DNA from: a virus
Lineage: Duplodnaviria; Caudoviricetes
Virus record (IMG/VR): IMGVR_UViG_3300038679_000021
Coordinates: 1-64,000 of that record
Strand: one strand, 5' to 3'
DNA length: 64,000 bases
Numbering within the stretch: position 1 is the stretch's first letter; each line of letters begins with the position of its first letter. Below are positions 9,157 through 58,170 of the stretch, piece after piece. Below the pieces are notes generated by a model. It was not told where the DNA came from. It searched no databases and was given only the letters and a program-made list of their open reading frames with translations. A program made the position numbers and the translations under genes.

Positions 9157-9173
9157 TTAGATTACTCCGAGGG

Positions 9174-9206
9174 GAAACTTAATTCCCACGCTTGTTTTCT
9201 TACAGG
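9174..9206. repeat. 33-bp direct repeat, copy 1 (flanks tRNA-like element)
   Basis: GAAACTTAATTCCCACGCTTGTTTTCTTACAGG; 29/33 identical to 9279-9311. Confidence 0.85.
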
Positions 9207-9273
9207 ATTCACCTACTGGAATCGAACCAGTGTTCCCCGCCGTCGCCGGGTCTTGCCACTAAATGAAGGTGAA
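9204..9273 (-). ncRNA. tRNA-like element / tRNA pseudogene with shortened anticodon arm
   Basis: Acceptor stem TTCACCT/AGGTGAA, D loop AGTGGC with GG, perfect T arm ACTGG-TTCGATT-CCAGT. The segment between D and T arms is 4-5 nt too short, has no canonical U33 loop, and the 3' end is TCCT rather than NCCA. Confidence 0.65.
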
Positions 9274-9278
9274 TCCTT

Positions 9279-9311
9279 GAAACTTAATCCCAACGTCTGT
9301 TTTCTTACAGG
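9279..9311. repeat. 33-bp direct repeat, copy 2 (overlaps stop codon of upstream gene)
   Basis: GAAACTTAATCCCAACGTCTGTTTTCTTACAGG. Confidence 0.85.
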
Positions 9312-10132: not shown

Positions 10133-10142
10133 GGTAGTACCC

Positions 10143-33799: not shown

Positions 33800-34930
33800 T
33801 CAGACCTCGATAGCTGCGAGCAGCTTTGTTACTACATTATCAGCCTCAAACTCTGAAACTTGGGCGCGGACACTTTCGGGATCGTAATCCTGCCGATGCT
33901 CGAAAGCCTCAGAAAGAATCTTCACTGCCGCACCTTTGTCGATATGTCCCCAGAAGACTTCGGCATTATCCATGACATTGGTGCAAGGAATCCCGAAACC
34001 AGACTTGATGAGTTCCGTGCAAGCGGAGTTCTGCGCGGCGATGACAGGGGTTCCGCAAGCCTGAGCCTCAATCAGAGGCACACCAAAGCCCTCACCCTTG
34101 CTTGTGTTCAGGTAGAAATCACAAGAAGAGTAGAAAGGCATCAAGTACTCGATCCCCAACATGCCGCAGTCGTACATATACTGCGGAGAGAAGATGAGAT
34201 TCTTCTCAGGGATTTGGAAGAAATCCCGAAGACGAAGAAGATTGAACCCACCTGTTGAGGAATTGGTTGTGGAATGAATCATCAGCAGAGCATCAGGATG
34301 CGTCTTGATGAACTTAGCCCACACTTCGAACATCGCGCAAACATTCTTCCGATCCTGCATAGCGATGATGTTCGCGAAGACCGCACCAACAACGAAACGC
34401 TCTCCCAACTCTGTTTTGATGAGAGGGCTGAGAATATCTCTGGCGTCTTCTTTGGAAAGCGACGTATTGTATTCCTCGGGATCAAAAGCCAGAGGAACAT
34501 ACGTGCTAGGGAACCCTGCATGCGTGAGGACTTCCTTACCGAATTTGGACATCGCCAGAACCTTCTTAGTTCCTTTGAGGCCCCTAGCGGTCAGAGGATG
34601 AAGAGGCCAGCCATCGATGACTGCCCACACAACCCAGTTCGGAAGTTGACCAAAAGCTTCATGCTCAAGATTGTAGATGTCGAAAAGGGAGAGACAAACA
34701 TCGGCGTTGAAGTGCTTGTAGTGCTGCCGAATATACCTACTGCCATAATCTTTAACAAGTGCGTGAGTGGGGTAAATAGGAATGTCGTTCCACATTATCG
34801 GAGTGAGGGTGCCGACAGTAGAGGCACAGGCAACATCGTGCTTTTCTGCGAGTCGTGGAAGCAAGAGCTTGGCTTGCTGTCCGTAACCAGTGGGATTCGT
34901 CGGAGGGACCGTATGGAGCAGGATTCTCAT
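33800..34930 (-). CDS. GT4-family (GT-B) glycosyltransferase within the tail module
   Basis: GEGFGVPLIEAQACGTPVIA (E-x7-E) and N-terminal TGYGQQ. Confidence 0.9.
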   Translation of the reverse strand: MRILLHTVPPTNPTGYGQQAKLLLPRLAEKHDVACASTVGTLTPIMWNDIPIYPTHALVKDYGSRYIRQHYKHFNADVCLSLFDIYNLEHEAFGQLPNWVVWAVIDGWPLHPLTARGLKGTKKVLAMSKFGKEVLTHAGFPSTYVPLAFDPEEYNTSLSKEDARDILSPLIKTELGERFVVGAVFANIIAMQDRKNVCAMFEVWAKFIKTHPDALLMIHSTTNSSTGGFNLLRLRDFFQIPEKNLIFSPQYMYDCGMLGIEYLMPFYSSCDFYLNTSKGEGFGVPLIEAQACGTPVIAAQNSACTELIKSGFGIPCTNVMDNAEVFWGHIDKGAAVKILSEAFEHRQDYDPESVRAQVSEFEADNVVTKLLAAIEV

Positions 34931-44387: not shown

Positions 44388-46064
44388 TCAGCCAACACAG
44401 ATTGTATCTAGGGAGCTACTACTTACAAAGGTAGCCGCAAGGTAGTCGTACAAATCAGCGAATCTCTGATGGTCTTTTCCCTTGCTCCAAACAAATTTCG
44501 TATTGCCCTTTGTGTCTGTCTCTTCTTGCCGGACAGGCTCAGTCATTTCCTTGACGTACTCTCCCTCAAGTAATGACTCAAAGTTGATTGGAAGAAGATT
44601 CTTCCCAGCTTTGAACTCTGCTAGCGTTCTATCTAACCCTGCTGTTCGATCAATAGCGATAGACCTATTCTTCTTGTCTTTCTTGATCCTCTTATCGGCA
44701 CCTTCGGAGCCGAAAGAGCAAGACCAAACAAAGAAAGGGGCCTCTTCTTGAAAATCAAGAACTGTGCGAAACTCAGGCATTGCATCGATTACTGCCACTT
44801 GGACATTGAACTGGACACCCAAGGAGATAAGCTCTTGAAGAGTAGATACCTTCCCAATGAAGATTGCTTTCCTAACCCCATCAGGAAGAACTTCAGAAAT
44901 GCGAACATCGAACTTCTTTCCTACGTCAACTCCCATAGAGCATTTCTTACGGGAGAACTCTTCATTTAAGTACCCTTTATGCTTCTCTGTAGTAAACGAG
45001 TAAGGGTCTCGAAGATGCGCTGCTTTCCGGAGAGTTTGAACAGTAAGGCGTTGGTTTCCAACTACGAAAGGAATACCTAAGTTAGAGGTATAGAAATGCT
45101 CTAACCCTGCCGCGCTCTCCCACGCATCTTCCCAAGCTGTGAAAATGTCATAAATGGAGTTTTCCCATGAGTTCAACATCGTCATGGAATACCCCTCTGT
45201 ATCACAAGAGGGATTCTCAGGAACCCACAGTCCGGCAGTTGATTGCCTGTTCAACGGGACATCGCAAGTGGGGCACATGCAATGAATATCTCTCCCACAA
45301 TCCCGCCGCCATTCCTGATCGCGGAGTGAGTAATCTACGAAGTTTCCGTCGTCGTCATGCTTAACAATCACAACAGTCTTGAACCAATCGAGCGGGATTG
45401 GTTGCCCGCACTTTTCGCAGGGAATATGCCAGAAGTTCCTCGTTGAGGATTCAAACATGCGATTGATGCCAACACCTTTAAGAGATGGGTTTCCGATATA
45501 CCTTCTGAATTGGTAGATGGAACCGCGCAGGCGGTCTCTTGCGTATTGAACGTTAGTCCCGGCGCACTGATCCAACTCTTCCACAAAGAGCATATCAGCA
45601 GGGTACTCTCGCATGTCAGAAAGCACATTGGAGCCGACGTATTTGATCGTTCCTTTTCCGAAATGCTTGAGAACAGTATTGTCAAAGAAGCCATCCCTAA
45701 CATAAGCGCGATACTCAGGCGTTTCTCCAATGCGCTTATCGATGCGGTTTTGCACGTAAGTAGTGCGGGATTCTACTTTCGGAAGAACAAAGAAAATGTT
45801 AAGGCCACAGGCGGCTGCTGCGAAATGGTCAATGATGATAAACTCAGATTTCTTCGACTGTACTGAGCCTTGAATTACGAGACTCTTCGCGAGAGTATTG
45901 TAGATTTGAGGTAGGTGGGCATTCCGAACAAAATCCATCCTCTCACCATGGGTGTTCCGATGGTATTTTGTGGCGAACTCAATGCGCTTATCACGAACCT
46001 CTAGCAGTTTCTCTGCTACTAGAAGATCGCGACGATCAAGAGAAAGAAAATCACGACGCGTCAT
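44388..46064 (-). CDS. terL: Terminase large subunit (lambda gpA-like)
   Basis: Divergent Walker A (GSVQSKKSE), VEELD, GNPS, CEKCG...CPTC Zn motif, MGVDVG nuclease motif. Confidence 0.92.
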   Translation of the reverse strand: MTRRDFLSLDRRDLLVAEKLLEVRDKRIEFATKYHRNTHGERMDFVRNAHLPQIYNTLAKSLVIQGSVQSKKSEFIIIDHFAAAACGLNIFFVLPKVESRTTYVQNRIDKRIGETPEYRAYVRDGFFDNTVLKHFGKGTIKYVGSNVLSDMREYPADMLFVEELDQCAGTNVQYARDRLRGSIYQFRRYIGNPSLKGVGINRMFESSTRNFWHIPCEKCGQPIPLDWFKTVVIVKHDDDGNFVDYSLRDQEWRRDCGRDIHCMCPTCDVPLNRQSTAGLWVPENPSCDTEGYSMTMLNSWENSIYDIFTAWEDAWESAAGLEHFYTSNLGIPFVVGNQRLTVQTLRKAAHLRDPYSFTTEKHKGYLNEEFSRKKCSMGVDVGKKFDVRISEVLPDGVRKAIFIGKVSTLQELISLGVQFNVQVAVIDAMPEFRTVLDFQEEAPFFVWSCSFGSEGADKRIKKDKKNRSIAIDRTAGLDRTLAEFKAGKNLLPINFESLLEGEYVKEMTEPVRQEETDTKGNTKFVWSKGKDHQRFADLYDYLAATFVSSSSLDTICVG

Positions 46065-46663
46065 TTGGGATGGTTCGCTGGCAACATAATCTGCCCAAAC
46101 TTGAGAAGCTTCTCAATAGAGCCAGCAATCTGATCGGGAGTACGCTCTTCTTTGGTATCTGCTTCGTGGATGATCTGATCGCCCAACTTCTTAAATAACT
46201 GCGCGGGATCGCCTGCTCTAGGGATGATTCCAGCATCTTGAAGCAACTTGATCTTCATCTTGCGGGCTTCAAGAGCCTGTTGGAAGAACTTGGCGCGATT
46301 GGGGTCTGGTTCTGTTCGCGACTCTTTAACAGTCCCCGTAACAGGATCGAAAGTCTTAACGGTCTTCGGCTCAAGCTGGTGGGCTTCATAGAGAGCGATA
46401 CGCTCGATCTCATCAAGCCACTGAATGTTAGCTGAAATGATCCCTACGGCGTCCGACTTGAGTAATTGTTGCCGGTAAATCTCTGTAACGGCAGAGATAT
46501 CATCCAAAATAACAGCATCAGAAACCTGAAAGACACGCGCCAAAGCGGAAACGGGGATGCCTTTGATGTAACCATCCCAGACTTTGGCGCGACGTTCCGC
46601 CTCAGAGGCGATTTCAATCGTCCCTTTCCTCTCAGGAGGCAGAACTGTAATGTCAGATTTCAC
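46061..46663 (-). CDS. terS: Terminase small subunit
   Basis: N-terminal HTH (GIPVSALARVFQVSDAVILDD); directly upstream of terL. Confidence 0.75.
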   Translation of the reverse strand: MKSDITVLPPERKGTIEIASEAERRAKVWDGYIKGIPVSALARVFQVSDAVILDDISAVTEIYRQQLLKSDAVGIISANIQWLDEIERIALYEAHQLEPKTVKTFDPVTGTVKESRTEPDPNRAKFFQQALEARKMKIKLLQDAGIIPRAGDPAQLFKKLGDQIIHEADTKEERTPDQIAGSIEKLLKFGQIMLPANHPK

Positions 46664-46935
46664 GAAGGAGTAGGTGGAAGAACGAGAGTAGACCTCGGAT
46701 AAAGAGTGGCTAAGTCATCAGACAAAGCACAAGGGAAAGCCCCATCGTGCCCCAACGCATGAAGGGCCAGCTTCACTGCCCTCATGCGTTTAGTCCACCC
46801 ACATTCACACTTGTCATTGAGCGTGATTTTCTCCCAATCGGGATGCTCGAAAGCAACGTTATCACACTCAAGACAGTTAGGCCATGAGACTAGGATCATA
46901 CAGAATCCTTCAGCTTCGATTTCAGGAACGTGCAA
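46660..46935 (-). CDS. Hypothetical Cys-rich protein
   Basis: 91 aa, CLEC...CECG; overlaps both neighbours. Confidence 0.55.
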   Translation of the reverse strand: MHVPEIEAEGFCMILVSWPNCLECDNVAFEHPDWEKITLNDKCECGWTKRMRAVKLALHALGHDGAFPCALSDDLATLYPRSTLVLPPTPS

Positions 46936-47684
46936 ATATCAACCTTCGTTGATCGAAGTTCGTTGACCATCTTCTCAGTCATGTCGAAGAGTTCACCATC
47001 CATGAGGACCATCAGATGCGTCTTCCCGCGATAGGCGAAGAACATGAAGTTTCCCGGAAGATCACCAGCGTAGTTCGAGAAGATGTTGTTCAGAACATCG
47101 GAGACCGAATCAATCGCCGTGAGTTCCTTGGAAGTTTCCTTCATTTCCTTGACCCACTTCTTGTCGTCTTCGGCGGAAGCGGGCTTCAAAAGATGCTTGG
47201 CATAGTCCCGGAAATCATCGAACCCCAAGAGCCCCGGCAAAGTTTCGTCCGAAAACCCCTTTTCCTTCAAGGAAGCAACAAGGGCGGTGAACTTGGAGTC
47301 GTCAAGTTCGCCACCAATGAGATTTCTCCGAACCGTCTTGAGTTTCTGCAACTCGATGGAGTCCCAGCTTTTGACGTAGCAAGGCACAGATGACATGCCA
47401 AGCACGCGGGCGGCGCGGAATCGGTGCGCCCCTCCAATGATGGTGTACGTCTGGGGTTCTCCATCGGCCACGGGATTTGGGACCACAAGAAGAGGGTCGT
47501 CAAAACCATCTTCCTTGATTTCGTTCACAAGGGCCGCGAAGTTGGCGTCTGTTTCGACGTTAGGGTTCCAGTTGTTCTCTACGAGTTGTCCCATAGAGAT
47601 CAACTCAGGGACATTGATCCTCACTCCGGTATCTTCCGCAGGGGCTTCTGGAGAATCCGCAACATCAATAACTTCGTCTTCCAT
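46896..47684 (-). CDS. ParB/Sulfiredoxin N-terminal-domain protein
   Basis: WNPN...GFDDPLLV...IIGGAHRFRAA; no clear C-terminal HTH. Confidence 0.88.
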   Translation of the reverse strand: MEDEVIDVADSPEAPAEDTGVRINVPELISMGQLVENNWNPNVETDANFAALVNEIKEDGFDDPLLVVPNPVADGEPQTYTIIGGAHRFRAARVLGMSSVPCYVKSWDSIELQKLKTVRRNLIGGELDDSKFTALVASLKEKGFSDETLPGLLGFDDFRDYAKHLLKPASAEDDKKWVKEMKETSKELTAIDSVSDVLNNIFSNYAGDLPGNFMFFAYRGKTHLMVLMDGELFDMTEKMVNELRSTKVDICTFLKSKLKDSV

Positions 47685-47691
47685 AAGTTCC

Positions 47692-49146
47692 TCACAGCAT
47701 TTTCATTGTTACTAGGTCTTGGATCGAGGCCCCTACTCTTTGGAAAAGAGCCCCTCCGCTTCCGCCAACATCTGCGAACCCGAGCAAAAGGAGAGCATCC
47801 CGATAAACTCCCGGACTTCTTCCGTATCTGGCCCCCGTCTTATTGATCTGGATACCTTTGTCCGAGGATTCCTTGACATGCTTGACAAGCTCCACCCAAG
47901 AAATCAGATTTTTTCCTTTCGTAAACTCTTCCATAAGACGAAAGGCGACGGATTTTATTGTCCGCAGCTTCTTTCTTACCAGAGTTTCGACTACTTTGTC
48001 AATCAGAGCGTCTGCGTTACCTTGCTTGGCATATACTATCCGCAAGAAGTTTATCTGTTTGTCGATAACTTCTTGCACTTCCTTTGAGTGGTAGTTATCG
48101 ATCAGGTGACGAAGAATAGCGGCACCCTCAAGCGGATTCGAGTAGAGGTAGGGGTAATCAGGAAAAACATAATCCCCCTGCCAATACCGCCCTTTATGGA
48201 AAACACCTATCTGGCGAAGCATCTGCTGCGTTACAATCGAAGCAGAAATCTCCCCCTCGGAGGCGTCGAACAAGAAGATATGCCCTGAGCGAAGCCACTT
48301 GACCCACTCGTCGTAAGAGATGTTTCTCGTCCAGACAGCGTGCTTGTACTTGTCCGGAATCTGGTGGACCTGTTCGAAAACAGTGAGATCAGAAGGCGTG
48401 TTGATCTGAAGAGTAACATCCCTACCGCCTGCGTAAGCCTTGTCCATGAGATCGAAAATCTCAAGGACTCCCGCAGCCCCGCTCATGGCAACTGCGAAGT
48501 TTAGAACTATCGGTTTGGCGGGCTTCGGGCAAGTACCGTCAAACTTGGAGAAGTCGAAGAAGGGAAGGAACTTAAAGCTCCGATCTCGCACAGCATTGAG
48601 CATCAGTGGCGACAGATACTTCGAAGCTACTCTAGCTGCTCTGGTGTACTGAGAGTCGCTAACATAGAAGTTGAGGTCTGCATGGTAGAGACCAGCAGAT
48701 TGGTTCATCAGTATCTCTTCGTCAACGTAACCATGCGTTGTCTTATCGAGAATGAACTGAAAGAAATTCGCGTAAACACGCTCTGTCTGCCCGCCAGTGC
48801 ATCCGGTAAGACCTGAAAGAAGACCCCGGAGGTAAGGGGTAGATGCTACCTTTTCGGTGAGAACTACATCAAGAAAGTCTGTTCCATCATCCCAAAAACG
48901 ACTGATCTCAGGTGGGATAAACCGCATCTCGAACTGCTGCCGTTGCCTCCAAGTTTCGGCAGAGATAAGTTGAATACGAGGATGATTAAAAGACTCGGTG
49001 TTCTTGATTTGTTTCGGGATTACAAGGTAAACAAAGGCGTTCTGAAAGCGATCAAGAAACCGAAAGAGGATGATCTTTGAGGACCGAAGGGACGAACAAA
49101 CCTTAGCGTCTGCGCTTGTCAGCAAAGGGACATACAGAATTCTCAT
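47692..49146 (-). CDS. Glycosyltransferase-like protein (GT-B fold suspected)
   Basis: MRILYVP start and two-domain Rossmann-like layout; context between the deacetylase and ParB genes. No diagnostic family motif confirmed. Confidence 0.5.
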   Translation of the reverse strand: MRILYVPLLTSADAKVCSSLRSSKIILFRFLDRFQNAFVYLVIPKQIKNTESFNHPRIQLISAETWRQRQQFEMRFIPPEISRFWDDGTDFLDVVLTEKVASTPYLRGLLSGLTGCTGGQTERVYANFFQFILDKTTHGYVDEEILMNQSAGLYHADLNFYVSDSQYTRAARVASKYLSPLMLNAVRDRSFKFLPFFDFSKFDGTCPKPAKPIVLNFAVAMSGAAGVLEIFDLMDKAYAGGRDVTLQINTPSDLTVFEQVHQIPDKYKHAVWTRNISYDEWVKWLRSGHIFLFDASEGEISASIVTQQMLRQIGVFHKGRYWQGDYVFPDYPYLYSNPLEGAAILRHLIDNYHSKEVQEVIDKQINFLRIVYAKQGNADALIDKVVETLVRKKLRTIKSVAFRLMEEFTKGKNLISWVELVKHVKESSDKGIQINKTGARYGRSPGVYRDALLLLGFADVGGSGGALFQRVGASIQDLVTMKML

Positions 49147-49787
49147 GCTCGCATCCTCAAGATTCTAAAAGCTTCGGCGTACTTAGCTTGTATTGACAAG
49201 CCACGAAATCGCAAGTAAGCCTCGACTTGTTTCTTCCCCCGAAAAGCGTTCATCTCATCACCATAAGCGGAGATGGCCCGCATCTTCGCGGAGACATCGG
49301 TAATGTCAAGGCATGTAAAGAGATTAGGCGAAAACGTCCGTGGAGTCAACTCAGAAGCAGAAGGAACTTCGAACTCGATCAAATCCAGCGGAAGTCTCCG
49401 AGTTGCTATTTCCACTGCCTGCGAAACTCTGCGATGATCTTGGTTGAAATCTTCCGACCAATGGGTATAGACGCGATCCGGCTGAAGTTTTCTGAGAACA
49501 TTCTCGATGGAAGAAATCAGGGCGATAAACTGATCGCTATTCTGAACTTGTTCGTCCTCACAACCACCGAAGAAAAGCAGTGAGGGCATAACTCCGAGTT
49601 CCTTACAGGCTAGCACAGCCCGTATACGAGACGTAGCCGCTGCTTTTTCGTCCTTCAAGTTGTGAACCCTCTTTGCCAAGCAAAAGAGAACCCCGCAGTA
49701 TCCATCAGAGTGGGAAAGCTTGTGGATAGTTCCGCCAGAAGAAAGCGTTTCATCATCACAGTGGGCGACTACAAAGAGATTTCTCAT
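49143..49787 (-). CDS. PIG-L/LmbE-family N-deacetylase
   Basis: AHCDDE, THW..D.NQDH, YAEAF. Confidence 0.88.
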   Translation of the reverse strand: MRNLFVVAHCDDETLSSGGTIHKLSHSDGYCGVLFCLAKRVHNLKDEKAAATSRIRAVLACKELGVMPSLLFFGGCEDEQVQNSDQFIALISSIENVLRKLQPDRVYTHWSEDFNQDHRRVSQAVEIATRRLPLDLIEFEVPSASELTPRTFSPNLFTCLDITDVSAKMRAISAYGDEMNAFRGKKQVEAYLRFRGLSIQAKYAEAFRILRMRA

Positions 49788-50515
49788 AAGACCCTCCAAG
49801 GTACATTAGAGAGGATGAATTCTTTCCTCTCTACACTCCCGCCATTTCGGATATTCGGAACTTTCGTGGCATAGGCAAACTGAAAAGGCATCCCCGGAAA
49901 AACATCAGTGGATTCAGAGTAAGTTGCTACGAAAGGAATCCCTTTTGTTAAGCAGATATCAAACAAACGCATAGCTTGAAGAATCGCAGTAGAGTCGGAA
50001 TGCTCACCATAGTTGGCAGAAGTTTTTGTGTAAGGAGGATCGATGAAAAGAAACATTCCGTCTGCGGGTTCGACACAACTTGAAGTGGCGCAAAAGACAA
50101 GGCCCTTCTTGAGAAAAGGGATCGCCTCAATCGTCTTTTCAACAGGGAGGTTATGTTGAGGGTACAGAGAATAAGACGAAAGCTGCCCAACCATCACACT
50201 AGCACAGTTGATCCTGAGATAAGTTTGCTCTTCCGGCTTTAACCCTAGCGTTCTGACATCTTTCTTAGCTTCTCTATTTACGTCACAAATAGCTTTGAGT
50301 TCCCTCAACCGAGAAATAGGGACTCGTTGAAGCCACAAGAGCATCATCACAAGTTCTTCGTTTACATCAACCCCCAGAAAGCGCGAGCCTTGATTCAAAC
50401 TAAAAGCCAAGCTCCCGCAAAAGGGTTCCACAATTACTTCGTGAGGGGGCATCTCTACAGCAACCTTTCGGAGCCATCTTCCCTTATTCCCAGAGTACCT
50501 GAACAAAGCCCTCAT
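49784..50515 (-). CDS. Dam-like (D12 class) DNA N6-adenine methyltransferase
   Basis: FRYSGNK, EPFCGS, FIDPPY. ATGA overlaps on both sides. Confidence 0.88.
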   Translation of the reverse strand: MRALFRYSGNKGRWLRKVAVEMPPHEVIVEPFCGSLAFSLNQGSRFLGVDVNEELVMMLLWLQRVPISRLRELKAICDVNREAKKDVRTLGLKPEEQTYLRINCASVMVGQLSSYSLYPQHNLPVEKTIEAIPFLKKGLVFCATSSCVEPADGMFLFIDPPYTKTSANYGEHSDSTAILQAMRLFDICLTKGIPFVATYSESTDVFPGMPFQFAYATKVPNIRNGGSVERKEFILSNVPWRVL

Positions 50516-51558
50516 ATAAAATTCGGCGTCCTTGTGTGAAGAAGGTTGTGGATCATCAGATTGTACTTCGTGTGGCGGCAAGAAGGACAAAACCTCTGGC
50601 AAATGTTAGGGTCTAGCATACCTCGAATATACTTTTCCCTCTTCTTTCCAGTCCAGATCGCTTCAACAGATTCTTCGTAGATATTCCCGATTATTCCGAG
50701 ACTCTCCCCAGTAGGAAGATGAACAGAATGAAGGCGGCAACAGAAGAAGACACTTCCATCAGAGCCGATCACAGAAGAGAGATTGTGAGCCCTACAAGGG
50801 AGCCCGAGATTCCCCGAAGCGTCAACTTCCCAGTCAAGCTGATGGGTATAGACCTTGAACGTTTCCGTTTGTAGGTCGTTTACCGGCGGCATCTTCCAAT
50901 CAATAGGGATGTTACGATCCTCTTTGTCGTCAAGTGTTCGGATTTGAACATAGTCCACTTCGATATCCCGAAGCCGCTGCGTGATACCATAGATATCCGT
51001 GATCGAGTAGGAACTAATAAGGTAGCCTACTCCAATGACACACTTTTCTTTCACTTTGGACCATGCTGCAAGATTCGCGAGAACCTTCTCGAAGGCGTCA
51101 ACTCCCTTAGCAGCCTTGTACTCTTCCTTAGTAGAAGCATCAAGAGAGACTCGAATCCACTCGAACTCTTTGATTACATCGTTGCTAAGAGGCTGAACTC
51201 CGTTAGTAATCAGCCCTACAGCGAGGCCGATCTTCTTAATCTCTCGCACAATAAACTCGAAATTCTTGTGGAGGGTAGGCTCCCCGCCGCCTTCGAGGAC
51301 TACCCCATGGGTTCCCATAGCCTTGAACTCTCTCAGGGCTTTCAACAATGCATCCGGCTGAAGCTCCCCACAATGACGCTTTCTCCATTCGATATCGACG
51401 CACCATTTGCAGTCGAGATTGCATCGGGAAGTCAAACTGACTTCGATGGAAATGGGGGCTTTGGAAAAATCACCAACAGTAAGCGCAGAAAGCCTCTCAG
51501 GATGCAGGAAAATCTTGGAAGACGAAAACTCAACTTCAGGTGAGGGGCGGATTTTCAT
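50512..51558 (-). CDS. Radical SAM protein with SPASM/twitch domain
   Basis: CNLDCKWC, GGGEPT, C-terminal CRAH...FFCC...CPSC. Confidence 0.9.
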   Translation of the reverse strand: MKIRPSPEVEFSSSKIFLHPERLSALTVGDFSKAPISIEVSLTSRCNLDCKWCVDIEWRKRHCGELQPDALLKALREFKAMGTHGVVLEGGGEPTLHKNFEFIVREIKKIGLAVGLITNGVQPLSNDVIKEFEWIRVSLDASTKEEYKAAKGVDAFEKVLANLAAWSKVKEKCVIGVGYLISSYSITDIYGITQRLRDIEVDYVQIRTLDDKEDRNIPIDWKMPPVNDLQTETFKVYTHQLDWEVDASGNLGLPCRAHNLSSVIGSDGSVFFCCRLHSVHLPTGESLGIIGNIYEESVEAIWTGKKREKYIRGMLDPNICQRFCPSCRHTKYNLMIHNLLHTRTPNFI

Positions 51559-51559
51559 T

Positions 51560-52246
51560 TCATCCTCTCAAGTAGTTACGAACAGCATCCCAGTTGGGCA
51601 TGTTCGCTATCAGGTCAATTATCGAAAGCTCAGGAACAAAACTTCCAGAAAACGTGCATTGCGGATAAGGAGGACAGGGCCACGTATCTTTCACAATCTC
51701 GATGCCTTCGAATATCTCCCGCTTCAGGTACTCAAAAGCAGAATCTCCGACCAAAAATTTGGTGCATCCCTTTAATTTGCAAAGGGCATTAAGCTGATGC
51801 TGCACAGCATCAGTGCCTTCCGAACTTACGTAGGTTGATCCAGAAAGTTGAACATGGGTCTCTATCCCAATCTTCCCTAGGATTATCTTGAGAACAGAAA
51901 CAGCAAAAGAGTTAAACGGATAGTCAATATACTTTCTGGTGTCCCTCTCAATCTCTTTCAAAGCGTCAATACCGGGGCTCCTTGCATAAGTGTGAAGAAT
52001 AGCCTTCCAATGGAAGTTGACAACTGCCCTGTCAAAATCCACATTGCGAATAGGGACTTGCTTCTTCCCTTTAATGGGGAGCGTAAGCATCAAAGGACCG
52101 TTTGGAAGAAGAATCCTATTACGGTTAATCCAATCCCCTTTGACAAATTGCACGGTGTCAAAAGCGACAAAAGCATCGCTTCTGGCAATGCGCGAGAAAT
52201 ACCGCACAGAAGGGAGGTAATGAAGCTGGTGAGCGGAGAAAATCAT
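51560..52246 (-). CDS. WbqC-family protein
   Basis: HQLHYLP, FDTVQF...WINRNRI, SIIDLIAN. Confidence 0.88.
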   Translation of the reverse strand: MIFSAHQLHYLPSVRYFSRIARSDAFVAFDTVQFVKGDWINRNRILLPNGPLMLTLPIKGKKQVPIRNVDFDRAVVNFHWKAILHTYARSPGIDALKEIERDTRKYIDYPFNSFAVSVLKIILGKIGIETHVQLSGSTYVSSEGTDAVQHQLNALCKLKGCTKFLVGDSAFEYLKREIFEGIEIVKDTWPCPPYPQCTFSGSFVPELSIIDLIANMPNWDAVRNYLRG

Positions 52247-53415
52247 ATCTCGCGAATCCTATCCCATTCCCGCAAAACGTTGCAAACTGATGCCGCTTTC
52301 TCTTCGTCAAACTTTGCTGAGATCGGAAGGCAAACATGGGATTTGGTAACATGGTCTGAAACAGGGAAGGTGTCCGTGAAGTTTACCCACCCATTCGCGT
52401 AGGGACTAAGCATAAAGTAAGGTTGCTCATGGAGACCAAAAGCAAAAACATCCATCTGCGCCGGAGTCCCATTGCTCTTTAACAGCCCCTTCAGACGCTC
52501 CGCTTGCAGAGGGGTTTCGCAAATAACGATAACTTTGTAGTAGTTGGGAATGCAGTTTTCGCAGAAGACTGGCTCATTCCTTTCTTCGAAGAAATCCCCA
52601 TAGTAATCGGCATAACGAGTTCGCTCTGCGATCATCTGAGGAAGGAAAGACTGCACATGATGGCAGATACAAGCATTGACATTGCTCATCCTACCATTGA
52701 ATCCGGCATAAGCATATTGATCCAACCATCCGGGATTCTGCCTTCCAATATCTCTGAGACGAATCAACTTCTCATAGAGCCCGCGGTCTTTCGTTACTAT
52801 GCACCCTCCCTCTGCTCCGAAAGCAACCTTTGTGGGATAATAAGAAAACACACCAGCATGCCCAATGCTGCCACCAAATTGCGTTTCCAGCTTCCTTCCG
52901 GCATTACCGGGCGCAACTTGCCATGTGCTAATACGTACTCCATGAGCGTGAGCCGCATCTTCGATAAGATGAATCCCCGTCGTGTCACAGAAATCACGGA
53001 GCTTGAGTATATCTTGAGAAATGAAGCCTCCAATTGACACGTAGACGATAGCGACTACATCCTCCCCTGCATAGTGGGTAATCATCGTCTTATCATCGAC
53101 TGCTAGCATCATATTGGAAGGATCAACGTCTCTGAAAAGCACCTTATGCCCTGCATTGACTGCGGCAATGGCAGTTGCGAAATGCGTGTTTGTGGGAATG
53201 ATTACAATACCCTTCCTAGGGAGGGCACGGAAGACTAACTCCAATCCTGCTGTCCCTGATCCGCAGGAAACAGCATAGTGTGATCCGGCCATGATCTTGG
53301 TCTGGTCTTCAAACCGCGAGTTCCACACCCCATGGGTGAGCCAGCCGCTTTTCAGGACTTCTTCCAGCTTCACCATCAGGCCGGGAACATCGGGGACTTC
53401 AATAGTAGGTTTCAT
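52243..53415 (-). CDS. DegT/DnrJ/EryC1/StrS PLP-dependent sugar aminotransferase
   Basis: SGTAGL, IEDAAHAHG, FSYYPTK (PLP Lys), GFNGRMS. Confidence 0.92.
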   Translation of the reverse strand: MKPTIEVPDVPGLMVKLEEVLKSGWLTHGVWNSRFEDQTKIMAGSHYAVSCGSGTAGLELVFRALPRKGIVIIPTNTHFATAIAAVNAGHKVLFRDVDPSNMMLAVDDKTMITHYAGEDVVAIVYVSIGGFISQDILKLRDFCDTTGIHLIEDAAHAHGVRISTWQVAPGNAGRKLETQFGGSIGHAGVFSYYPTKVAFGAEGGCIVTKDRGLYEKLIRLRDIGRQNPGWLDQYAYAGFNGRMSNVNACICHHVQSFLPQMIAERTRYADYYGDFFEERNEPVFCENCIPNYYKVIVICETPLQAERLKGLLKSNGTPAQMDVFAFGLHEQPYFMLSPYANGWVNFTDTFPVSDHVTKSHVCLPISAKFDEEKAASVCNVLREWDRIREI

Positions 53416-53416
53416 A

Positions 53417-54670
53417 TTACTCCCTTATCCATTTTTTTCGGTGATTCAACCGCAAAGCTCTTTCCCAAGTCCCACTAGAAACACCCCAAAAATCAAGAAG
53501 TCGCGGGTCTGCTACAGAAGCCCGCCCACCAGCCATATCGGATGGAAACACGTCTTTTACGGCATCATAAAGCTCGGAGTTACCGAAAGGATAGGTCACT
53601 GCAAGGCTATACCAATCCGCCCCCATGGCCTCGAATCCGTCCAGACTCTCGTTGTAATCCGCGTCAGTACAGCCCGGAGCCCCAAGCATGACGTACACCG
53701 CTACAGGAACTCCGTTGGCTTTGAGAAGAGCTACGGCTTCTTTCGCCTGCGCGACAGTGATTCCTTTGTGGAAAGCATCCAGCATTCGTTGGGAACAAGC
53801 TTCGACACCTAGCTTGATCTGTTTGCAGCCCTGAAGATTTCCGGCAAGTTCCGGGGTGATATCATCACACCGGGCATCACAGACGAAAGGAATTCTTCGA
53901 TTACGGAGAAGTGAGATGACGGCCTCTGCCCTAGTGGGGTTGATAAACAAAGAATCATCCACGAACTGAAGGAAGAACTTTTGGCCTTTGTAGAGGTCTG
54001 CAAAGTAATCCAACTGCCTCTTGATATATTCGATAGGATAGAAGCGAACATGCCCCCAAATTCTCTTGGAGGAACAGAAAGAACATTTGAAAGGGCATCC
54101 CCGAGAGGAAGCAATCTGATTGAACTCGTTCGGCTTTGTGGGAGGAACAAGCATGCAGTCTTTGGTAATAATCGGAAGATTCCCGTAATCCACAGAAGTC
54201 GGAGTGATATACGAAGGAAGACGAGCGGGGTCTATCACGCGGAGAATAGATGAATCAGACTCCCCAATGAAAGTAGGGAAACCTCTCCCAACCTTCTCGG
54301 CGGCAGGCCCACCAACAAAAACCCGAGGAACTAGGGGAGAAAGCCCAGAGAGTAAAGCACGGGCCTGAATCAGGGTGCCTTCATTTACAGAAACCCCCAC
54401 GGCATCTGGTTGGAAGTCCAAAACCTCCCTGAAAATGCTTTGATAAACCTCGTCGTCCAGATTATGAATCCTTCGCGGATACTCCACAGCATTTTTGAGC
54501 AACTGCTTGAGAGGAATTGGAGGAACGCTTGCGAAATCTCCGTTGAGAACCTTTGCGTCTACCCCGTGACTTCTCAGGGTTTCTGCTAAGAACATCGGCC
54601 CTAAAGCACTCCATTCTGTTCGGGAGCCAAGAAACCGATAGTAGGGTGGGGTGATAAACAATACTTTCAT
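53417..54670 (-). CDS. Cobalamin-binding radical SAM protein (class B methylase-like)
   Basis: N-terminal B12-type Rossmann domain (LGPMFLA...VGVS...VGGP), SSRGCPFKCSFC, KLGVEA. TAATG overlap start at 54670. Confidence 0.88.
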   Translation of the reverse strand: MKVLFITPPYYRFLGSRTEWSALGPMFLAETLRSHGVDAKVLNGDFASVPPIPLKQLLKNAVEYPRRIHNLDDEVYQSIFREVLDFQPDAVGVSVNEGTLIQARALLSGLSPLVPRVFVGGPAAEKVGRGFPTFIGESDSSILRVIDPARLPSYITPTSVDYGNLPIITKDCMLVPPTKPNEFNQIASSRGCPFKCSFCSSKRIWGHVRFYPIEYIKRQLDYFADLYKGQKFFLQFVDDSLFINPTRAEAVISLLRNRRIPFVCDARCDDITPELAGNLQGCKQIKLGVEACSQRMLDAFHKGITVAQAKEAVALLKANGVPVAVYVMLGAPGCTDADYNESLDGFEAMGADWYSLAVTYPFGNSELYDAVKDVFPSDMAGGRASVADPRLLDFWGVSSGTWERALRLNHRKKWIRE

Positions 54671-55197
54671 TAAACACCAAGTTTTGTAGCTATCAAAGTG
54701 GCCCCAACCCGCAAAACATGACACCCAACTTTCTGAAGCATTTCCGGAACAAAAGTAACAACATGCCTCTCATGCTCATTACCAAAAGCGGGGTCTTGAG
54801 GGTCTGGGCCATCAGGAACAGCTATTACAATATCGCAAGAACTGGGAACTTTAGAAATGACAGACTCCCATGTAGGAATATGCTCAAGAACATCCCCAAA
54901 AATAACGAGGTCCGCTTTTGGGAAGAGAAAGTTAGGGTTGGAAACATCGGCGAAAATGATGTCGTCATAAATCGCACGGTGATGGTCTTGGACATATGCT
55001 GGAAAAACCTCAACAGCAGTTAAGTGAACTTTCCAGTCCTTAGATAGAAAGACTCCGTTCTTGAGGCACTCAAGATATTCCCGGCAAAGAAGACCGAACT
55101 TCCCAAACCCACAGCCGACATCAACAATCCTCTTGGGGTTTTGCTGAAGAATGAACCTCATCATAGGCTCAATAGACTCTAAGTTACTTGTCGGCAT
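54670..55197 (-). CDS. Class I SAM-dependent methyltransferase
   Basis: IVDVGCGFG, DVLEHI. Confidence 0.85.
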   Translation of the reverse strand: MPTSNLESIEPMMRFILQQNPKRIVDVGCGFGKFGLLCREYLECLKNGVFLSKDWKVHLTAVEVFPAYVQDHHRAIYDDIIFADVSNPNFLFPKADLVIFGDVLEHIPTWESVISKVPSSCDIVIAVPDGPDPQDPAFGNEHERHVVTFVPEMLQKVGCHVLRVGATLIATKLGV

Positions 55198-55777
55198 TTA
55201 CGATATTCCTTTTGTCTAAGAGGGTTTTTGCCTCTTCCGGAGAATACCCGACAAGCTCAAGAACTTTCTCAGCGTATCGGTTTGGCCGTTCCTTATCGAG
55301 TAGCCCGCCTTCTTCGCAGAACTTCCTCGCGCCCTTCTGGCCGACAAAGCCTAGCTCTTTTCCCCTCTTCGTGTGCATATCCACAGCGAAAGATGGGATT
55401 GCAGGCTTCCATCCCTTCTCCGCGACTTGCGCCACAATCCAATCGAGATCACAAGCCTCATGGGATTTGACTGCCCTACACATCTTGAGAATGGCGCAAG
55501 CAACGATGTTAGTCTCCGCAGATTTCGGGGCGTCTTTCATCGCCACGTTCGAGAGGTAATGGCAAGAGGCCACGTAAGGGAGAACATCGGGCTCTCCGGC
55601 GCAATCCTCTCCGGCGGTGACTGCCAGCCGCCGCCACATATACGCGGCGAATCCGTTTTCGATCATCACACGCGCCCAGTACATCGCGTGAACTTCATCG
55701 CCCCTTCGAATGGTCTTCTGCAAAGCAGAAACAACCTCATCCAAAGGATACGCTCCGCACATCAGAATGTCAGCCAT
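55184..55777 (-). CDS. Stand-alone MgsA/RarA C-terminal-domain protein (no AAA+ domain)
   Basis: VSALQKTIRRGD...AMYWA...WRRL...EDC, CRAVKS, AVDMHTKRG. Confidence 0.8.
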   Translation of the reverse strand: MADILMCGAYPLDEVVSALQKTIRRGDEVHAMYWARVMIENGFAAYMWRRLAVTAGEDCAGEPDVLPYVASCHYLSNVAMKDAPKSAETNIVACAILKMCRAVKSHEACDLDWIVAQVAEKGWKPAIPSFAVDMHTKRGKELGFVGQKGARKFCEEGGLLDKERPNRYAEKVLELVGYSPEEAKTLLDKRNIVNADK

Positions 55778-55795
55778 AAGTCCTCCGTTTAGTAG

Positions 55796-55824
55796 ATAAT
55801 AGAGCAGAGACTTCGTGAAAGCAA
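55796..55824 (-). promoter_or_regulatory. Sigma70-type promoter heading the modification operon
   Basis: TTGCTT-N17-TATTAT, then ACGGAGGACTTATG (RBS context identical to that of the 17748 gene). Confidence 0.65.
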
Positions 55825-58135: not shown

Positions 58136-58170
58136 AAGAAACCCTCCCCCGGAGTGCGCCGGGGGAGGGT
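58134..58170 (-). terminator. Intrinsic terminator-like hairpin
   Basis: 12-bp stem ACCCTCCCCCGG/CCGGGGGAGGGT followed by TTCTT on the minus strand. Confidence 0.7.

What the first reader, a model, noticed from the sequence alone, without database searches (positions are those of the whole stretch)
46896..55824. Ten-gene sugar/methyl modification operon translationally coupled into the terminase genes: candidate new DNA (or virion) hypermodification pathway
Seen in sequence: one predicted promoter (55796-55824) precedes MgsA-C, SAM-MTase, B12-radical SAM, DegT aminotransferase, WbqC, radical SAM/SPASM, Dam-like MTase, PIG-L deacetylase, GT-like protein and ParB-like protein, then a small Cys-rich gene, terS and terL. 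Nearly all junctions are overlaps or gaps of a few bases. Established: DegT, WbqC and PIG-L build N-acylated amino sugars in surface-polysaccharide loci; ParB-domain genes beside terminases often accompany phage DNA-modification enzymes; class B radical SAMs methylate unactivated carbons using cobalamin. No TET/JBP, hydroxymethylase or thymidylate-synthase homolog is visible in the window to supply a hydroxymethyl handle. Inference: an oxygen-independent route may attach a decorated amino sugar to DNA, perhaps at Dam-targeted adenines activated by a radical SAM, coupled to packaging. Alternatively the sugar feeds virion glycosylation.
Basis: partly seen in the sequence, partly recalled or inferred. 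Interest (0 to 1): 0.85.

Follow-up and report, generated by a model that had tools for sequence, protein, structure and literature searches.

The report
Phage glycosyltransferase-ParB sugar-tailoring operon
An uncultured marine phage carries, just before its DNA-packaging genes, a conserved gene set (a sugar-attaching enzyme, its own ParB-like partner and several sugar-tailoring enzymes) that most likely decorates the phage's own DNA with a modified amino sugar, although the target is unproven and no known enzyme that prepares a DNA base for a sugar is present.

Summary
Ten coupled minus-strand genes (55777-46896) run into a small Zn-ribbon gene, terS and terL. Only the proposed promoter is weak.

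The 484-aa protein is a glycosyltransferase: a high-confidence GT-B fold (pLDDT 90), closest to BshA, with an extra C-terminal domain that looks like a winged helix.

It belongs to an unnamed family of about 446 clusters. In all 11 neighbourhoods examined, and in cultured Arthrobacter and Stenotrophomonas phages, it sits beside one cognate ParB-like family. MgsA_C-like, WbqC, PIG-L, DegT and radical SAM/SPASM genes recur with it. The B12-radical SAM and the small methyltransferase recur less often. The Dam-like methylase is private to this phage.

No TET/JBP or ThyA homolog occurs in this record or in the complete DanielleIgnace genome.

My best reading (about 45%) is a "transfer, then tailor" pathway like bacillithiol or aminoglycoside synthesis, acting on phage DNA before packaging, with ParB as helper. 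Virion glycosylation is the main rival; a second glycosyltransferase lies in the tail module.

This scan had already noted the same core cassette in at least six other genomes, with the same open question. This copy is an enlarged variant, and its glycosyltransferase lacks the family's near-invariant Glu (T306).

The parts
55184..55777 (-). MgsA_C-like protein (197 aa), with no AAA+ module. Recurrent member of the cassette; role unknown.
   Evidence: Pfam MgsA_C E 5.6e-7; phrog_33349 E 2.3e-16. Homologs lie in 6 of 11 related loci, including DanielleIgnace gp90.
54670..55197 (-). Small class I SAM methyltransferase (175 aa), a probable N- or O-methylase of the sugar. Accessory.
   Evidence: Methyltransf_23 E 4.5e-6, 26.9 bits against a cut-off of 27. 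VDVGCG motif. By Pfam family, Methyltransf_23 genes also lie in the cassettes of L016 and L019; homology to this gene was not detected by BLAST.
53417..54724 (-). Class B (B12-binding) radical SAM enzyme (435 aa), a probable C-methylase. Accessory.
   Evidence: Radical_SAM 1.8e-18 and B12-binding 1.1e-4. Best NCBIfam match is the PhpK family, 2.1e-24. CPFKCSFC at residue 210. A homolog lies next to ParB in L016.
52243..53415 (-). DegT/DnrJ/EryC1-type PLP sugar aminotransferase (390 aa).
   Evidence: Pfam 2.7e-57; PseC/DesI/LegC-like. Homologs lie in 5 related loci and in Stenotrophomonas phage DLP3 gp98.
51560..52246 (-). WbqC-family protein (228 aa), function uncharacterised. Candidate amide ligase acting on the freed sugar amine.
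   Evidence: Pfam WbqC 1.6e-38. Conserved N-terminal HQxH-YLP motif. Homologs lie in 5 further loci (6 cassettes counting this window), including DanielleIgnace gp95. No PDB relative by sequence.
50512..51558 (-). Radical SAM/SPASM enzyme (348 aa), a candidate alcohol-to-ketone oxidase that would feed the aminotransferase.
   Evidence: Radical_SAM 2.6e-16 and SPASM 4.9e-9. Full-length match to a SPASM maturase family, 2.4e-25. Weak PDB hits to PqqE, SkfB and BtrN. CNLDCKWC plus C-terminal Cys cluster. Homologs lie in L004, L010, L012 and the P0020 context.
49784..50515 (-). Dam-like D12 N6-adenine DNA methyltransferase. The likely start is Met30 of the long frame, giving 243 aa. Not conserved in relatives.
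   Evidence: MethyltransfD12 8.3e-9. FCGSL and DPPY motifs. No homolog in any related cassette.
49143..49799 (-). PIG-L/LmbE-family de-N-acetylase (218 aa).
   Evidence: Pfam 3.8e-16. BshB1 4.3e-6. PDB diacetylchitobiose deacetylase-type proteins 1.3e-4. AHCDDE and NQDH motifs. Homologs lie in 5 loci and in DLP3 gp96.
47692..49146 (-). Core glycosyltransferase (484 aa). GT-B fold over residues 1-393, plus a C-terminal extension whose last part (about residues 400-475) looks like a winged helix.
   Evidence: AF2 with 133-sequence alignment: pLDDT 90.3, pTM 0.91. Foldseek finds HepE, PglA, BshA, MshA and PimA at about 1e-11. VIA-align: BshA Z 26.8, T4 alpha-GT Z 18.9. Family profile against PDB: TreT 1.7e-5. 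The family has 446 representatives. T306 replaces a Glu kept in 129 of 133 members.
46896..47684 (-). Cognate ParB-like protein (262 aa). It has a ParB N-terminal nucleotide-binding domain and a conserved C-terminal part, no detected HTH, and net charge -17.
   Evidence: ParB_N 1.7e-8. phrog_26387 3.6e-36 over the full length. GAHRFRA motif. One family, 25-49% identical over the whole length, lies next to the GT in every locus. Charge.
46660..46935 (-). Small Zn-ribbon-like protein (CxxC...CxC), translationally coupled to terS.
   Evidence: Translation. An 82-aa gene sits at the same place in L004. No family match.
46061..46663 (-). Probable small terminase subunit (200 aa), assigned by position only.
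   Evidence: No family match. Homolog in L004 at the same position before TerL.
44388..46064 (-). Large terminase subunit; overlaps terS by 4 nt.
   Evidence: GpA_ATPase 1.7e-17. Junctions.
33800..34930 (-). Second glycosyltransferase (GT4 type, 376 aa) inside the tail module. It may share the sugar supply and is the basis of the virion-glycosylation rival.
   Evidence: Glycos_transf_1 1.4e-10. phrog_2170 1.8e-28 over the full length, lying between neck/tail genes and the tape measure gene. Positional and sequence counterpart is DanielleIgnace gp21.

Best explanation
This is an enlarged version of a recurrent phage cassette. Its fixed core is a BshA-like GT-B glycosyltransferase with a C-terminal domain that looks like a winged helix, plus a dedicated ParB-like partner. 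MgsA_C-like, PIG-L and WbqC genes usually accompany the pair.

Proposed mechanism (inferred unless stated):
1. Late in infection the genes are co-expressed with the terminase. The glycosyltransferase, helped on double-stranded DNA by its ParB-like partner, transfers an N-acetylhexosamine from a host UDP-sugar to replicated phage DNA.
2. PIG-L removes the N-acetyl group after transfer, as BshB, MshB and BtrD do.
3. WbqC puts a new acyl or aminoacyl group on the freed amine.
4. In this phage the SPASM radical SAM oxidises a sugar hydroxyl to a ketone, and DegT turns it into a second amino group.
5. The B12-radical SAM and the small SAM methylase add C- and N/O-methyl groups.
6. The Dam-like enzyme is a separate, ordinary adenine methylase.

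Shown here: gene content, intact motifs, the GT fold, and the conserved GT-ParB linkage with recurring accessory genes. Inferred: donor, order of steps, and above all the acceptor (DNA) and the atom that receives the sugar.
For: - Fold: the model is confident (pLDDT 90.3) and matches BshA, MshA, PglA and PimA. Experimentally proven phage DNA glycosyltransferases give the same PDB matches (bioRxiv 10.1101/2023.12.21.572611; PMC13326640).
- GT/PIG-L pairing: BshA is the top structural match (Z 26.8), and BshB1 is the NCBIfam match of the PIG-L gene.
- Linkage: the GT and one cognate ParB family are adjacent or near-adjacent in 11 of 11 loci. This holds even where the cassette lies among RecA, RuvC, SSB and PolA genes rather than by the terminase.
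- Host range: the same set occurs in cultured Arthrobacter phage DanielleIgnace and Stenotrophomonas phage DLP3. Hosts with quite different envelopes point to a universal substrate.
- ParB precedent: ParB-like proteins without a DNA-binding domain activate a phage thymine dioxygenase specifically on dsDNA. GT, ParB and terminase are the commonest neighbours of phage 5mYOX genes (PMC13229309).
- Variable sugar genes: the accessory genes differ between relatives (Ugd, SDRs, FdtA-like, Epimerase_2), as expected for glycan diversification.
- Protein properties: no cluster protein has a clear membrane span and no flippase or polymerase was recognised in the operon. The GT has net charge +8.
- Weak experimental hint: DLP3 DNA resisted all 15 restriction enzymes tried (PMC7326821).
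Against: - No enzyme known to create an attachment point is present. TET/JBP and ThyA are absent from this record and from the complete DanielleIgnace genome, which also lacks ThyX. No Pfam list for the +/-10 kb around any relative shows them.
- This phage's GT and its closest relative have Thr where 129 of 133 family members keep the second Glu of the E-x7-E donor-binding motif.
- A second GT sits in the tail module here and in DanielleIgnace, which fits virion glycosylation.
- ParB has net charge -17 and no detected HTH.
- The winged-helix reading rests on secondary-structure order and on Atlas scores near 0.8 only. A profile of that domain finds nothing in the PDB.
- The DLP3 restriction result is weak. 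In the 19 kb held here, 11 of the 15 enzymes have no site, and the informative ones (SmaI with 11 sites, ClaI with 5) are, from my own knowledge, methylation-sensitive.
- These genomes assemble readily from ordinary short-read metagenomes, so any modification is not one that blocks sequencing.
Confidence: 0.45

Rival explanations
1. Virion glycosylation. The operon makes or tailors an unusual amino sugar that is attached to capsid or tail proteins, with the tail-module GT4 enzyme (33800-34930) and/or the 484-aa enzyme as the writers. ParB and MgsA_C would be neighbours for packaging-related reasons.
For: - A full-length phage GT (phrog_2170) lies between neck/tail genes and the tape measure gene.
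- The only complete cultured genome examined in full, DanielleIgnace, has the same pairing: a tail-module GT (gp21) plus the cassette.
- The operon is co-transcribed with late packaging genes.
- Mycobacteriophages glycosylate capsid and tail tube with their own GT operons.
Against: - It does not explain why one cognate ParB family follows the GT in 11 of 11 loci, including loci inside replication and recombination modules far from structural genes.
- It does not explain the MgsA_C-like gene.
- The similarity between the two tail-module GTs is only 26% over 187 residues, which could be generic GT4 similarity.
Confidence: 0.22
2. Small-molecule or host-envelope product. The GT/PIG-L/WbqC triad makes a bacillithiol-, mycothiol- or aminoglycoside-like glycoside, or remodels a host surface glycan, to alter host physiology or block superinfection.
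For: - BshA is the best structural match and PIG-L matches BshB1.
- The enzyme classes GT4, PIG-L, DegT, radical SAM oxidase and B12-radical SAM methylase are those of butirosin and gentamicin tailoring (my own knowledge of those pathways).
- The authors of the DLP3 paper suggested LPS modification for gp102 (PMC7326821).
Against: - No aglycone-forming enzyme, lipid-carrier transferase, flippase or polymerase was recognised in the operon by Pfam, and no clear membrane span.
- The same core occurs in phages of Gram-positive Arthrobacter, Gram-negative Stenotrophomonas and marine hosts, which argues against an envelope-specific acceptor.
- ParB and MgsA_C linkage is unexplained.
Confidence: 0.13
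3. Loose cargo. The genes are independently acquired morons with no joint function, packed together only because phage genomes are compact.
For: - Three of the ten genes (Dam-like MTase, B12-radical SAM, small MTase) are missing from the closest relative L004, which carries other genes there (GT29-like, adh_short, Metallophos).
Against: - Seven of the ten genes are shared with L004.
- The GT-ParB pair with MgsA_C, WbqC, PIG-L, DegT and SPASM genes recurs in phages whose GTs are only 18-30% identical and whose terminases and portals are of different types.
Confidence: 0.04

Closest known systems
Post-replicative phage DNA hypermodification clusters built on 5mYOX (TET/JBP-like) dioxygenases with GT and ParB-like genes near the terminase (Burke et al. 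2021 PMC8256090, seen here only as a listed title and abstract; Pyle et al. bioRxiv 10.1101/2023.12.21.572611; O'Toole et al. 2026 PMC13229309)
   Same: - A GT plus a ParB-like gene beside the terminase.
- The GT-B enzymes proven there also resemble BshA and MshA.
- The ParB there lacks an obvious DNA-binding domain and activates the DNA-modifying enzyme on dsDNA.
- Sugar-tailoring genes (epimerases, methyltransferases) accompany them.
   Different: - No 5mYOX and no C5-cytosine methylase is detectable here or in the complete genome of a cultured carrier.
- The GT belongs to a separate family with no Pfam model and has an added C-terminal domain.
- PIG-L, WbqC, MgsA_C, DegT and radical SAM genes are not reported parts of those clusters. 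The terms deacetylase, aminotransferase and radical are absent from the Pyle text.
Bacillithiol and mycothiol synthesis (BshA/BshB/BshC; MshA/MshB/MshC)
   Same: - A retaining GT4 enzyme transfers GlcNAc, a PIG-L/LmbE deacetylase frees the amine, and a ligase acylates it.
- BshA is the top structural match of the GT (Z 26.8).
- BshB1 is the NCBIfam match of the PIG-L gene.
   Different: - The acceptor is unlikely to be malate or inositol phosphate.
- The WbqC-BshC relation is only a lead from earlier notes of this scan and was not tested here.
- This copy's GT lacks the second Glu of E-x7-E.
- The pathway is tied to ParB and to DNA packaging.
Aminoglycoside tailoring (butirosin BtrM/BtrD/BtrS/BtrN; gentamicin GenM1/GenD/GenS2/GenN/GenD1/GenK); comparison from my own knowledge of these pathways
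   Same: - The same enzyme classes act after glycosyl transfer: GT4, PIG-L deacetylase, DegT-type aminotransferase, radical SAM alcohol oxidase, B12-radical SAM C-methylase and SAM N-methylase.
   Different: - No 2-deoxy-scyllo-inosose synthase or other aglycone gene.
- The radical SAM is closer to SPASM maturases than to BtrN; the BtrN hit is weak and covers only the core.
- The setting is a phage packaging operon.
Oligosaccharide- and arabinose-hypermodified pyrimidines of SP-15, YerA41 and Carin-5 (PMC12686479) and of RB69 and Acinetobacter phage DLP3 (PMC13326640)
   Same: - Phage gene blocks combine several GT-B enzymes with sugar-nucleotide enzymes and, in Carin-5, a GlcNAc N-deacetylase-like gene, placed next to replication genes.
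- The GT models match BshA, MshA and PimA.
   Different: - RB69 and Acinetobacter phage DLP3 start from a base made by a thymidylate-synthase homolog with dedicated kinases and a dCTPase; the Carin-5 paper cites the same usual route to 5hmdU.
- None of these is recognisable here apart from an ordinary-looking ThyX.
- No ParB in those blocks (the term is absent from the Carin-5 text).
Mycobacteriophage virion glycosylation operons
   Same: - Phage-encoded GTs and methyltransferases outside the structural module decorate capsid and tail tube.
- A GT lies in the tail module here.
   Different: - As far as I recall, those operons have no ParB, MgsA_C, PIG-L, WbqC or radical SAM partners.

Membership tests
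Phage 5mYOX-ParB-GT DNA hypermodification clusters | A 5-methylpyrimidine dioxygenase (TET/JBP fold) that makes 5hmC or 5hmU as the sugar acceptor | tested here: not met
   PF12851 finds nothing in the 84.6-kb record at E <= 0.1 or in the complete DanielleIgnace genome. It appears in no Pfam list for the +/-10 kb around any of the 11 related loci. Caveats: the record is 84% complete, and O'Toole et al. note that divergent 5mYOX enzymes escape PF12851.
Phage 5mYOX-ParB-GT DNA hypermodification clusters | A ParB-like partner with an N-terminal nucleotide-binding domain and no obvious DNA-binding domain, encoded next to the modifying enzyme | tested here: met
   Only ParB_N is detected (residues 29-112), with the GAHRFRA motif. 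One full-length family sits adjacent to the GT in all loci. Homology to the published 5mYOX-associated ParBs themselves was not tested, as no sequences were at hand.
Phage 5mYOX-ParB-GT DNA hypermodification clusters | A glycosyltransferase in the cluster, close to the terminase | tested here: met
   GT-B fold. The GT, ParB, Zn-ribbon gene, terS and terL are coupled by overlaps or gaps of 40 nt or less.
Pre-replicative glycosylated pyrimidines (T4 glucosyl-hmC; RB69 and Acinetobacter DLP3 arabinosyl-5hoC) | A ThyA homolog that makes the hydroxylated or hydroxymethylated nucleotide | tested here: not met
   PF00303 finds nothing in the record, in DanielleIgnace or in Stenotrophomonas DLP3. A canonical ThyX (E 2.5e-51) lies at 68950-69501. 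Its product specificity cannot be judged here.
GT4 retaining glycosyltransferases (BshA/MshA/PimA type) | GT-B two-Rossmann fold | tested here: met
   BshA: Z 26.8, rmsd 3.0 over 347 residues. Foldseek E about 1e-11 to HepE, PglA, BshA and MshA.
GT4 retaining glycosyltransferases (BshA/MshA/PimA type) | E-x7-E motif, whose second Glu binds the donor nucleotide's ribose | tested here: not met
   The family column is Glu in 129 of 133 sequences. It is Thr (T306) in this protein and in its Tara relative P0002. The family as a whole meets the feature; this copy does not.
GT4 retaining glycosyltransferases (BshA/MshA/PimA type) | Match to the Pfam Glycos_transf_1 model | tested here: not met
   No Pfam family at E <= 0.01 for this protein. 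Of eight family members scanned, one gave a weak hit. The family profile reaches GT4 structures only at 1.7e-5.
Bacillithiol-type GT / deacetylase / ligase triad | A PIG-L/LmbE deacetylase with intact metal-binding motifs, paired with the GT | tested here: met
   PIG-L 3.8e-16. AHCDDE and NQDH motifs. It overlaps the GT start by 4 nt. It co-occurs with the GT in 5 related loci and in DLP3.
Bacillithiol-type GT / deacetylase / ligase triad | A BshC-like ligase (here WbqC) | not testable with these tools
   No sequence-level relation was found: no PDB hit for the protein or for a 6-sequence profile, and no NCBIfam hit. The Atlas structural search returned only WbqC clusters. The BshC-fold claim comes from earlier notes of this scan.
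T4-type DNA glucosyltransferases (AGT/BGT) | Closest structural relatives are the T4 enzymes | tested here: inconclusive
   T4 alpha-GT (1y6f) aligns at Z 18.9, rank 24, well below the GT4 enzymes. Published DNA GT-B enzymes also match BshA and MshA, so rank does not decide the acceptor.

The most novel reading that the evidence does not exclude
A DNA glycosylation system that needs no hydroxymethyl or hydroxyl pyrimidine. A BshA-like glycosyltransferase is guided or activated by its own ParB-like clamp and puts an amino sugar directly on phage DNA just before packaging. The sugar is then rebuilt while on the DNA: deacetylation, aminoacylation, radical SAM oxidation with transamination, and B12-dependent C-methylation. 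The result would be an aminoglycoside-like cationic decoration on DNA, a type of DNA chemistry not yet described.
Probability: 0.2. Interest if true: 0.9.

Novelty: new variant of a known kind. Interest (0 to 1): 0.64.

Why it matters
If the target is DNA, this cassette would be a widespread DNA hypermodification route that does not start from 5hmC, 5hmU or 5hoC. The GT family has about 446 clusters at 50% identity and occurs from marine phages to actinophages.

It would assign functions to two uncharacterised families: WbqC and the stand-alone MgsA_C proteins. It would also extend the newly found role of ParB-like proteins as helpers of DNA-modifying enzymes from dioxygenases to glycosyltransferases.

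Such modifications decide how phages escape restriction and CRISPR systems, and they provide new enzymes for labelling DNA.

Three cultured carriers make the question directly testable: Stenotrophomonas phages DLP3 and DLP5, and Arthrobacter phage DanielleIgnace.

Tried and rejected
- **Single-sequence AF2 of the GT** failed (pLDDT 35) and cost one of the two structure jobs. No model of WbqC, ParB or the GT C-terminal domain alone could then be made.
- **The search for related loci in IMG/VR** found nothing with the GT, with P0003 or with P0100. Neighbourhoods were sampled through the look-up of encoding contigs instead.
- **Megablast of the operon** against cultured phages: no match.
- **WbqC:** no PDB relative by sequence or profile, nothing from the Atlas beyond WbqC itself, and no useful literature.
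- **GT C-terminal domain:** a 10-sequence profile finds nothing in the PDB. Atlas leads to winged-helix families score only about 0.8.
- **Palindrome as parS:** I tested whether the dispersed palindrome GCAATCGATTGC is the parS of this ParB. It is shared with L004 and L016. However, the L016 ParB is no closer to the window's ParB than the ParBs of loci without the palindrome, so this idea is not supported.
- **Dam-targeted adenine and radical SAM as the source of the attachment point:** rejected as general explanations, because neither gene is conserved across cassettes.
- **DLP3 restriction resistance as strong evidence:** downgraded after counting sites.
- **TAGT/GREB1 membership,** suggested by earlier first readers: no Pfam family of any kind matches the GT.

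Full report
**Setting.** The window is bases 1-64000 of an 84,559-bp IMG/VR virus record, rated 84% complete. Every gene of any size lies on the minus strand. There are no tRNAs and no nucleotide-level match among cultured phages. Its closest relative comes from Tara Oceans metagenomes.

**Check of the observation.**
- Catalytic motifs are intact: CxxxCxxC in both radical SAMs and a C-terminal Cys cluster in the SPASM enzyme. PIG-L has AHCDDE and NQDH. The Dam-like enzyme has FCGSL and DPPY, and its real start is probably Met30, 4 nt into the preceding gene. The small methylase has VDVGCG and ParB has GAHRFRA.
- From MgsA_C to TerL every junction is an overlap of 4-55 nt or a gap of 1-7 nt.
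- The proposed promoter at 55796-55824 is TTGCTT-N17-TATTAT (3/6 + 5/6). The scan did not call it, and the region has fewer promoter-like sites than its shuffles.
- The four upstream genes (231, 109 and 158 aa, then an ATP-dependent ligase) are equally tightly packed and are conserved in the same order in the Tara relative. A strong terminator-like hairpin lies at 58170-58141. The unit may therefore begin at the ligase.

**The 484-aa protein.** Alone it could not be folded. An exhaustive profile search found a family of 446 representatives at 50% identity, nearly all about 480 aa and with no Pfam model.
- With 133 of them as alignment, AF2 gave pLDDT 90.3 and pTM 0.91.
- Residues 1-393 are a GT-B fold. 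The best matches are GT4 retaining enzymes: BshA Z 26.8, sucrose-phosphate synthase 25.6, then HepE, PglA, PimA and MshA. T4 alpha-glucosyltransferase comes at Z 18.9.
- The family profile reaches TreT and other GT4 structures at 1.7e-5.
- A helical extension follows. Residues about 400-475 have the helix-strand-helix-helix-strand-strand order of a winged helix. The Atlas gives only weak leads to winged-helix families, and a profile of the domain finds nothing in the PDB. This part is an inference.
- One detail runs against a simple reading. The second Glu of the E-x7-E motif is kept in 129 of 133 members, but it is Thr in this protein and in its closest relative. The donor may differ, or the activity may be altered.

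**Conserved linkage.** I examined 11 neighbourhoods of family members whose GTs are only 18-51% identical to this one, plus two cultured phages. All-against-all comparison gave these counts:

| Gene family | Occurrence |
|---|---|
| GT | 11 of 11 loci |
| One ParB family (25-49% identical over its whole length) | within three genes of the GT in 10 of 11 loci; the eleventh (L008) is a short contig whose long twin has it |
| MgsA_C-like | 6 loci |
| WbqC | 6 cassettes, counting this window |
| PIG-L | 5 loci |
| DegT | 5 loci |
| SPASM radical SAM | 4 loci, plus the P0020 context |
| SDR epimerase/dehydratases | 4 loci |
| B12-radical SAM | the window and L016 |
| Methyltransf_23 (by Pfam family) | the window, L016 and L019 |
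| Dam-like enzyme | the window only |

- Seven of the ten genes are shared with the closest relative, L004.
- The cassette sits either just before the terminase or inside a RecA/RuvC/SSB/PolA module (L010, L018).
- The other sugar genes vary between relatives: UDP-glucose dehydrogenase, UDP-GlcNAc 2-epimerase, FdtA-like isomerase, a GT29-like gene. This looks like diversification of the glycan around a fixed GT-ParB writer.
- One family member carries an intein.

**Cultured carriers.**
- Arthrobacter phage DanielleIgnace has gp90 (MgsA-like), gp91 (GT), gp92 (PIG-L-like), gp95 (WbqC-like), gp97 (family GT), gp98 (ParB) and gp100 (MTase) at its right end.
- Stenotrophomonas phage vB_SmaS_DLP_3 has gp96 (PIG-L), gp97 (SDR), gp98 (DegT), gp99 (MTase), gp102 (GT), gp104 (ParB), gp105 and gp106 (TerL).
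- Its authors reported that DLP3 DNA resisted all 15 restriction enzymes tried and concluded that the DNA is modified (PMC7326821).
- I count this only as a hint. In the 19 kb of DLP3 held here, 11 of those enzymes have no site at all. The informative ones (SmaI with 11 sites, ClaI with 5) are, from my own knowledge, blocked by simple methylation.

**The missing acceptor.**
- No TET/JBP or ThyA homolog is found in this record, in the complete DanielleIgnace genome (no ThyX either), or in any neighbourhood list.
- This record has a canonical ThyX and a second SPASM radical SAM, both outside the window.
- DLP3 has a weak ThyX-like gene directly after TerL.
- An unknown 364-386-aa family accompanies GT-ParB in the three loci that lack WbqC and PIG-L.
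- None of these can yet be called the enzyme that prepares the DNA.

**What is known.**
- Saleh and colleagues showed that phage GTs put diverse glycans on 5hmC made by phage TET-like enzymes, and that their GT-B enzymes resemble BshA and MshA.
- They also showed that ParB-like proteins lacking a DNA-binding domain activate a subclass of phage thymine dioxygenases on dsDNA. GTs (31%), ParBs (27%) and terminases (19%) are the commonest neighbours of those dioxygenases.
- Weigele and colleagues showed arabinosylated 5-hydroxycytosine made through a ThyA homolog, again with BshA/MshA/PimA-like GTs.
- Carin-5, YerA41 and SP-15 carry oligosaccharide-modified thymidine, with a gene block that includes a GlcNAc deacetylase-like gene.
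- The present cassette shares the GT-ParB-terminase setting but lacks the base-priming enzyme. It adds PIG-L, WbqC, MgsA_C and, here, DegT and two radical SAMs.

**Mechanism proposed.** The pairing of a BshA-like GT with a PIG-L deacetylase recurs in bacillithiol, mycothiol, GPI-anchor and aminoglycoside pathways. In all of them the acetyl group is removed after transfer and the amine is then re-used. I therefore read the core as follows.
- The GT transfers a HexNAc, PIG-L deacetylates it, and WbqC re-acylates the amine.
- The step assigned to WbqC rests on gene context and on a BshC-fold lead from earlier notes of this scan, which I could not test.
- The SPASM enzyme plus DegT fit the BtrN/anSME type of alcohol oxidation followed by transamination.
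- The B12-radical SAM and the small methylase fit the methylations of gentamicin synthesis.
- The acceptor is most likely phage DNA. The reasons are the invariable ParB partner, the MgsA_C gene, the position in DNA modules, the spread across hosts with unrelated envelopes, and the absence of any recognised membrane or lipid-carrier enzymes.
- I put this at about 45%.

**Rivals.**
- Virion glycosylation (about 22%) is supported by a full-length phage GT (phrog_2170) in the tail module at 33800-34930, and by the same arrangement in DanielleIgnace.
- A small-molecule or envelope product (about 13%) would fit the BshA/BshB and aminoglycoside analogies, but it leaves ParB and the wide host spread unexplained.
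- Unrelated cargo is largely excluded by the conserved linkage.

**Relation to earlier notes of this scan.** The same core cassette was noted in at least six other genomes, and follow-up agents reached the same verdict: an amino sugar on DNA is likely, the target is unproven, and the priming enzyme is missing.
- the enlarged ten-gene variant, and which of its parts recur;
- the size of the GT family, and a confident model of the GT;
- the T306 substitution;
- the cognate nature of the ParB family;
- two groups of cultured carriers, with a critical look at the DLP3 restriction result;
- the co-occurring tail-module GT.

Noticed in passing
window 11288, 17201, 23768, 44314, 56155; L004 5900 and 15489; L016 1348, 3216, 9390, 12834, 15761, 20715: The 12-14-bp palindrome (T)GCAATCGATTGC(A) occurs 5 times in the window (0.02 expected). 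It also occurs twice in the Tara relative and six times in 21.5 kb of a distant phage with a T4-type portal (L016), mostly between genes. Here and in L004 one copy lies just upstream of the portal gene start. Sharing it does not track ParB similarity, so a shared regulator or host factor is more likely than a parS site.
   Followed up: partly
window 33800-34930 (-): A full-length GT4-type glycosyltransferase (phrog_2170) lies between neck/tail genes and the tape measure gene. Arthrobacter phage DanielleIgnace, which also carries the cassette, has a GT (gp21) at the equivalent place (26% identity over 187 aa).
   Followed up: partly
window 48229-48231 (codon of residue 306 of the GT, minus strand): Thr replaces a Glu kept in 129 of 133 family members (the second Glu of E-x7-E). 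Gly311 of the family is Arg here. The Glu-to-Thr change is also present in the Tara relative P0002, so it is a lineage trait and not a sequencing error.
   Followed up: yes
protein P0140 (926 aa, metagenomic family member): One member of the GT family is interrupted by an intein with a LAGLIDADG-like domain, which suggests that the gene is important to its phage.
   Followed up: no
own genome outside the window: 65849-66736 (-) and 68950-69501 (-): There is a second radical SAM/SPASM gene, paralogous to the one in the operon, and a canonical ThyX (E 2.5e-51). Neither is linked to the cassette.
   Followed up: partly
window 58141-58170 (-): A 12-bp, GC-rich terminator-like hairpin lies just upstream of the ligase gene. 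The operon probably starts here and not at 55824.
   Followed up: partly
L022 (Stenotrophomonas phage DLP3, 59647-78711): Eleven of the fifteen six-base restriction sites used in the published RFLP test are absent from this 19-kb stretch, while SmaI has 11 sites. This is strong site avoidance, and it weakens the published inference that the DNA is modified. gp107, directly after TerL, gives a weak ThyX-like match (E 1.8e-6).
   Followed up: partly
L010 8408-9529, L018 7957-9117, L020 7178-8278 and 8875-9945: An unannotated family of 364-386-aa proteins sits next to GT-ParB in the three loci that lack WbqC and PIG-L. One copy has a weak SWIM zinc-finger hit. It is a candidate alternative partner or acceptor-forming enzyme.
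   Followed up: partly
window 5173-11519 (-): The replication and recombination genes (RecA-like, helicase and others) are related to those of L010 and L018, whereas the packaging and head genes are related to L004. The genome is therefore a mosaic.
   Followed up: no
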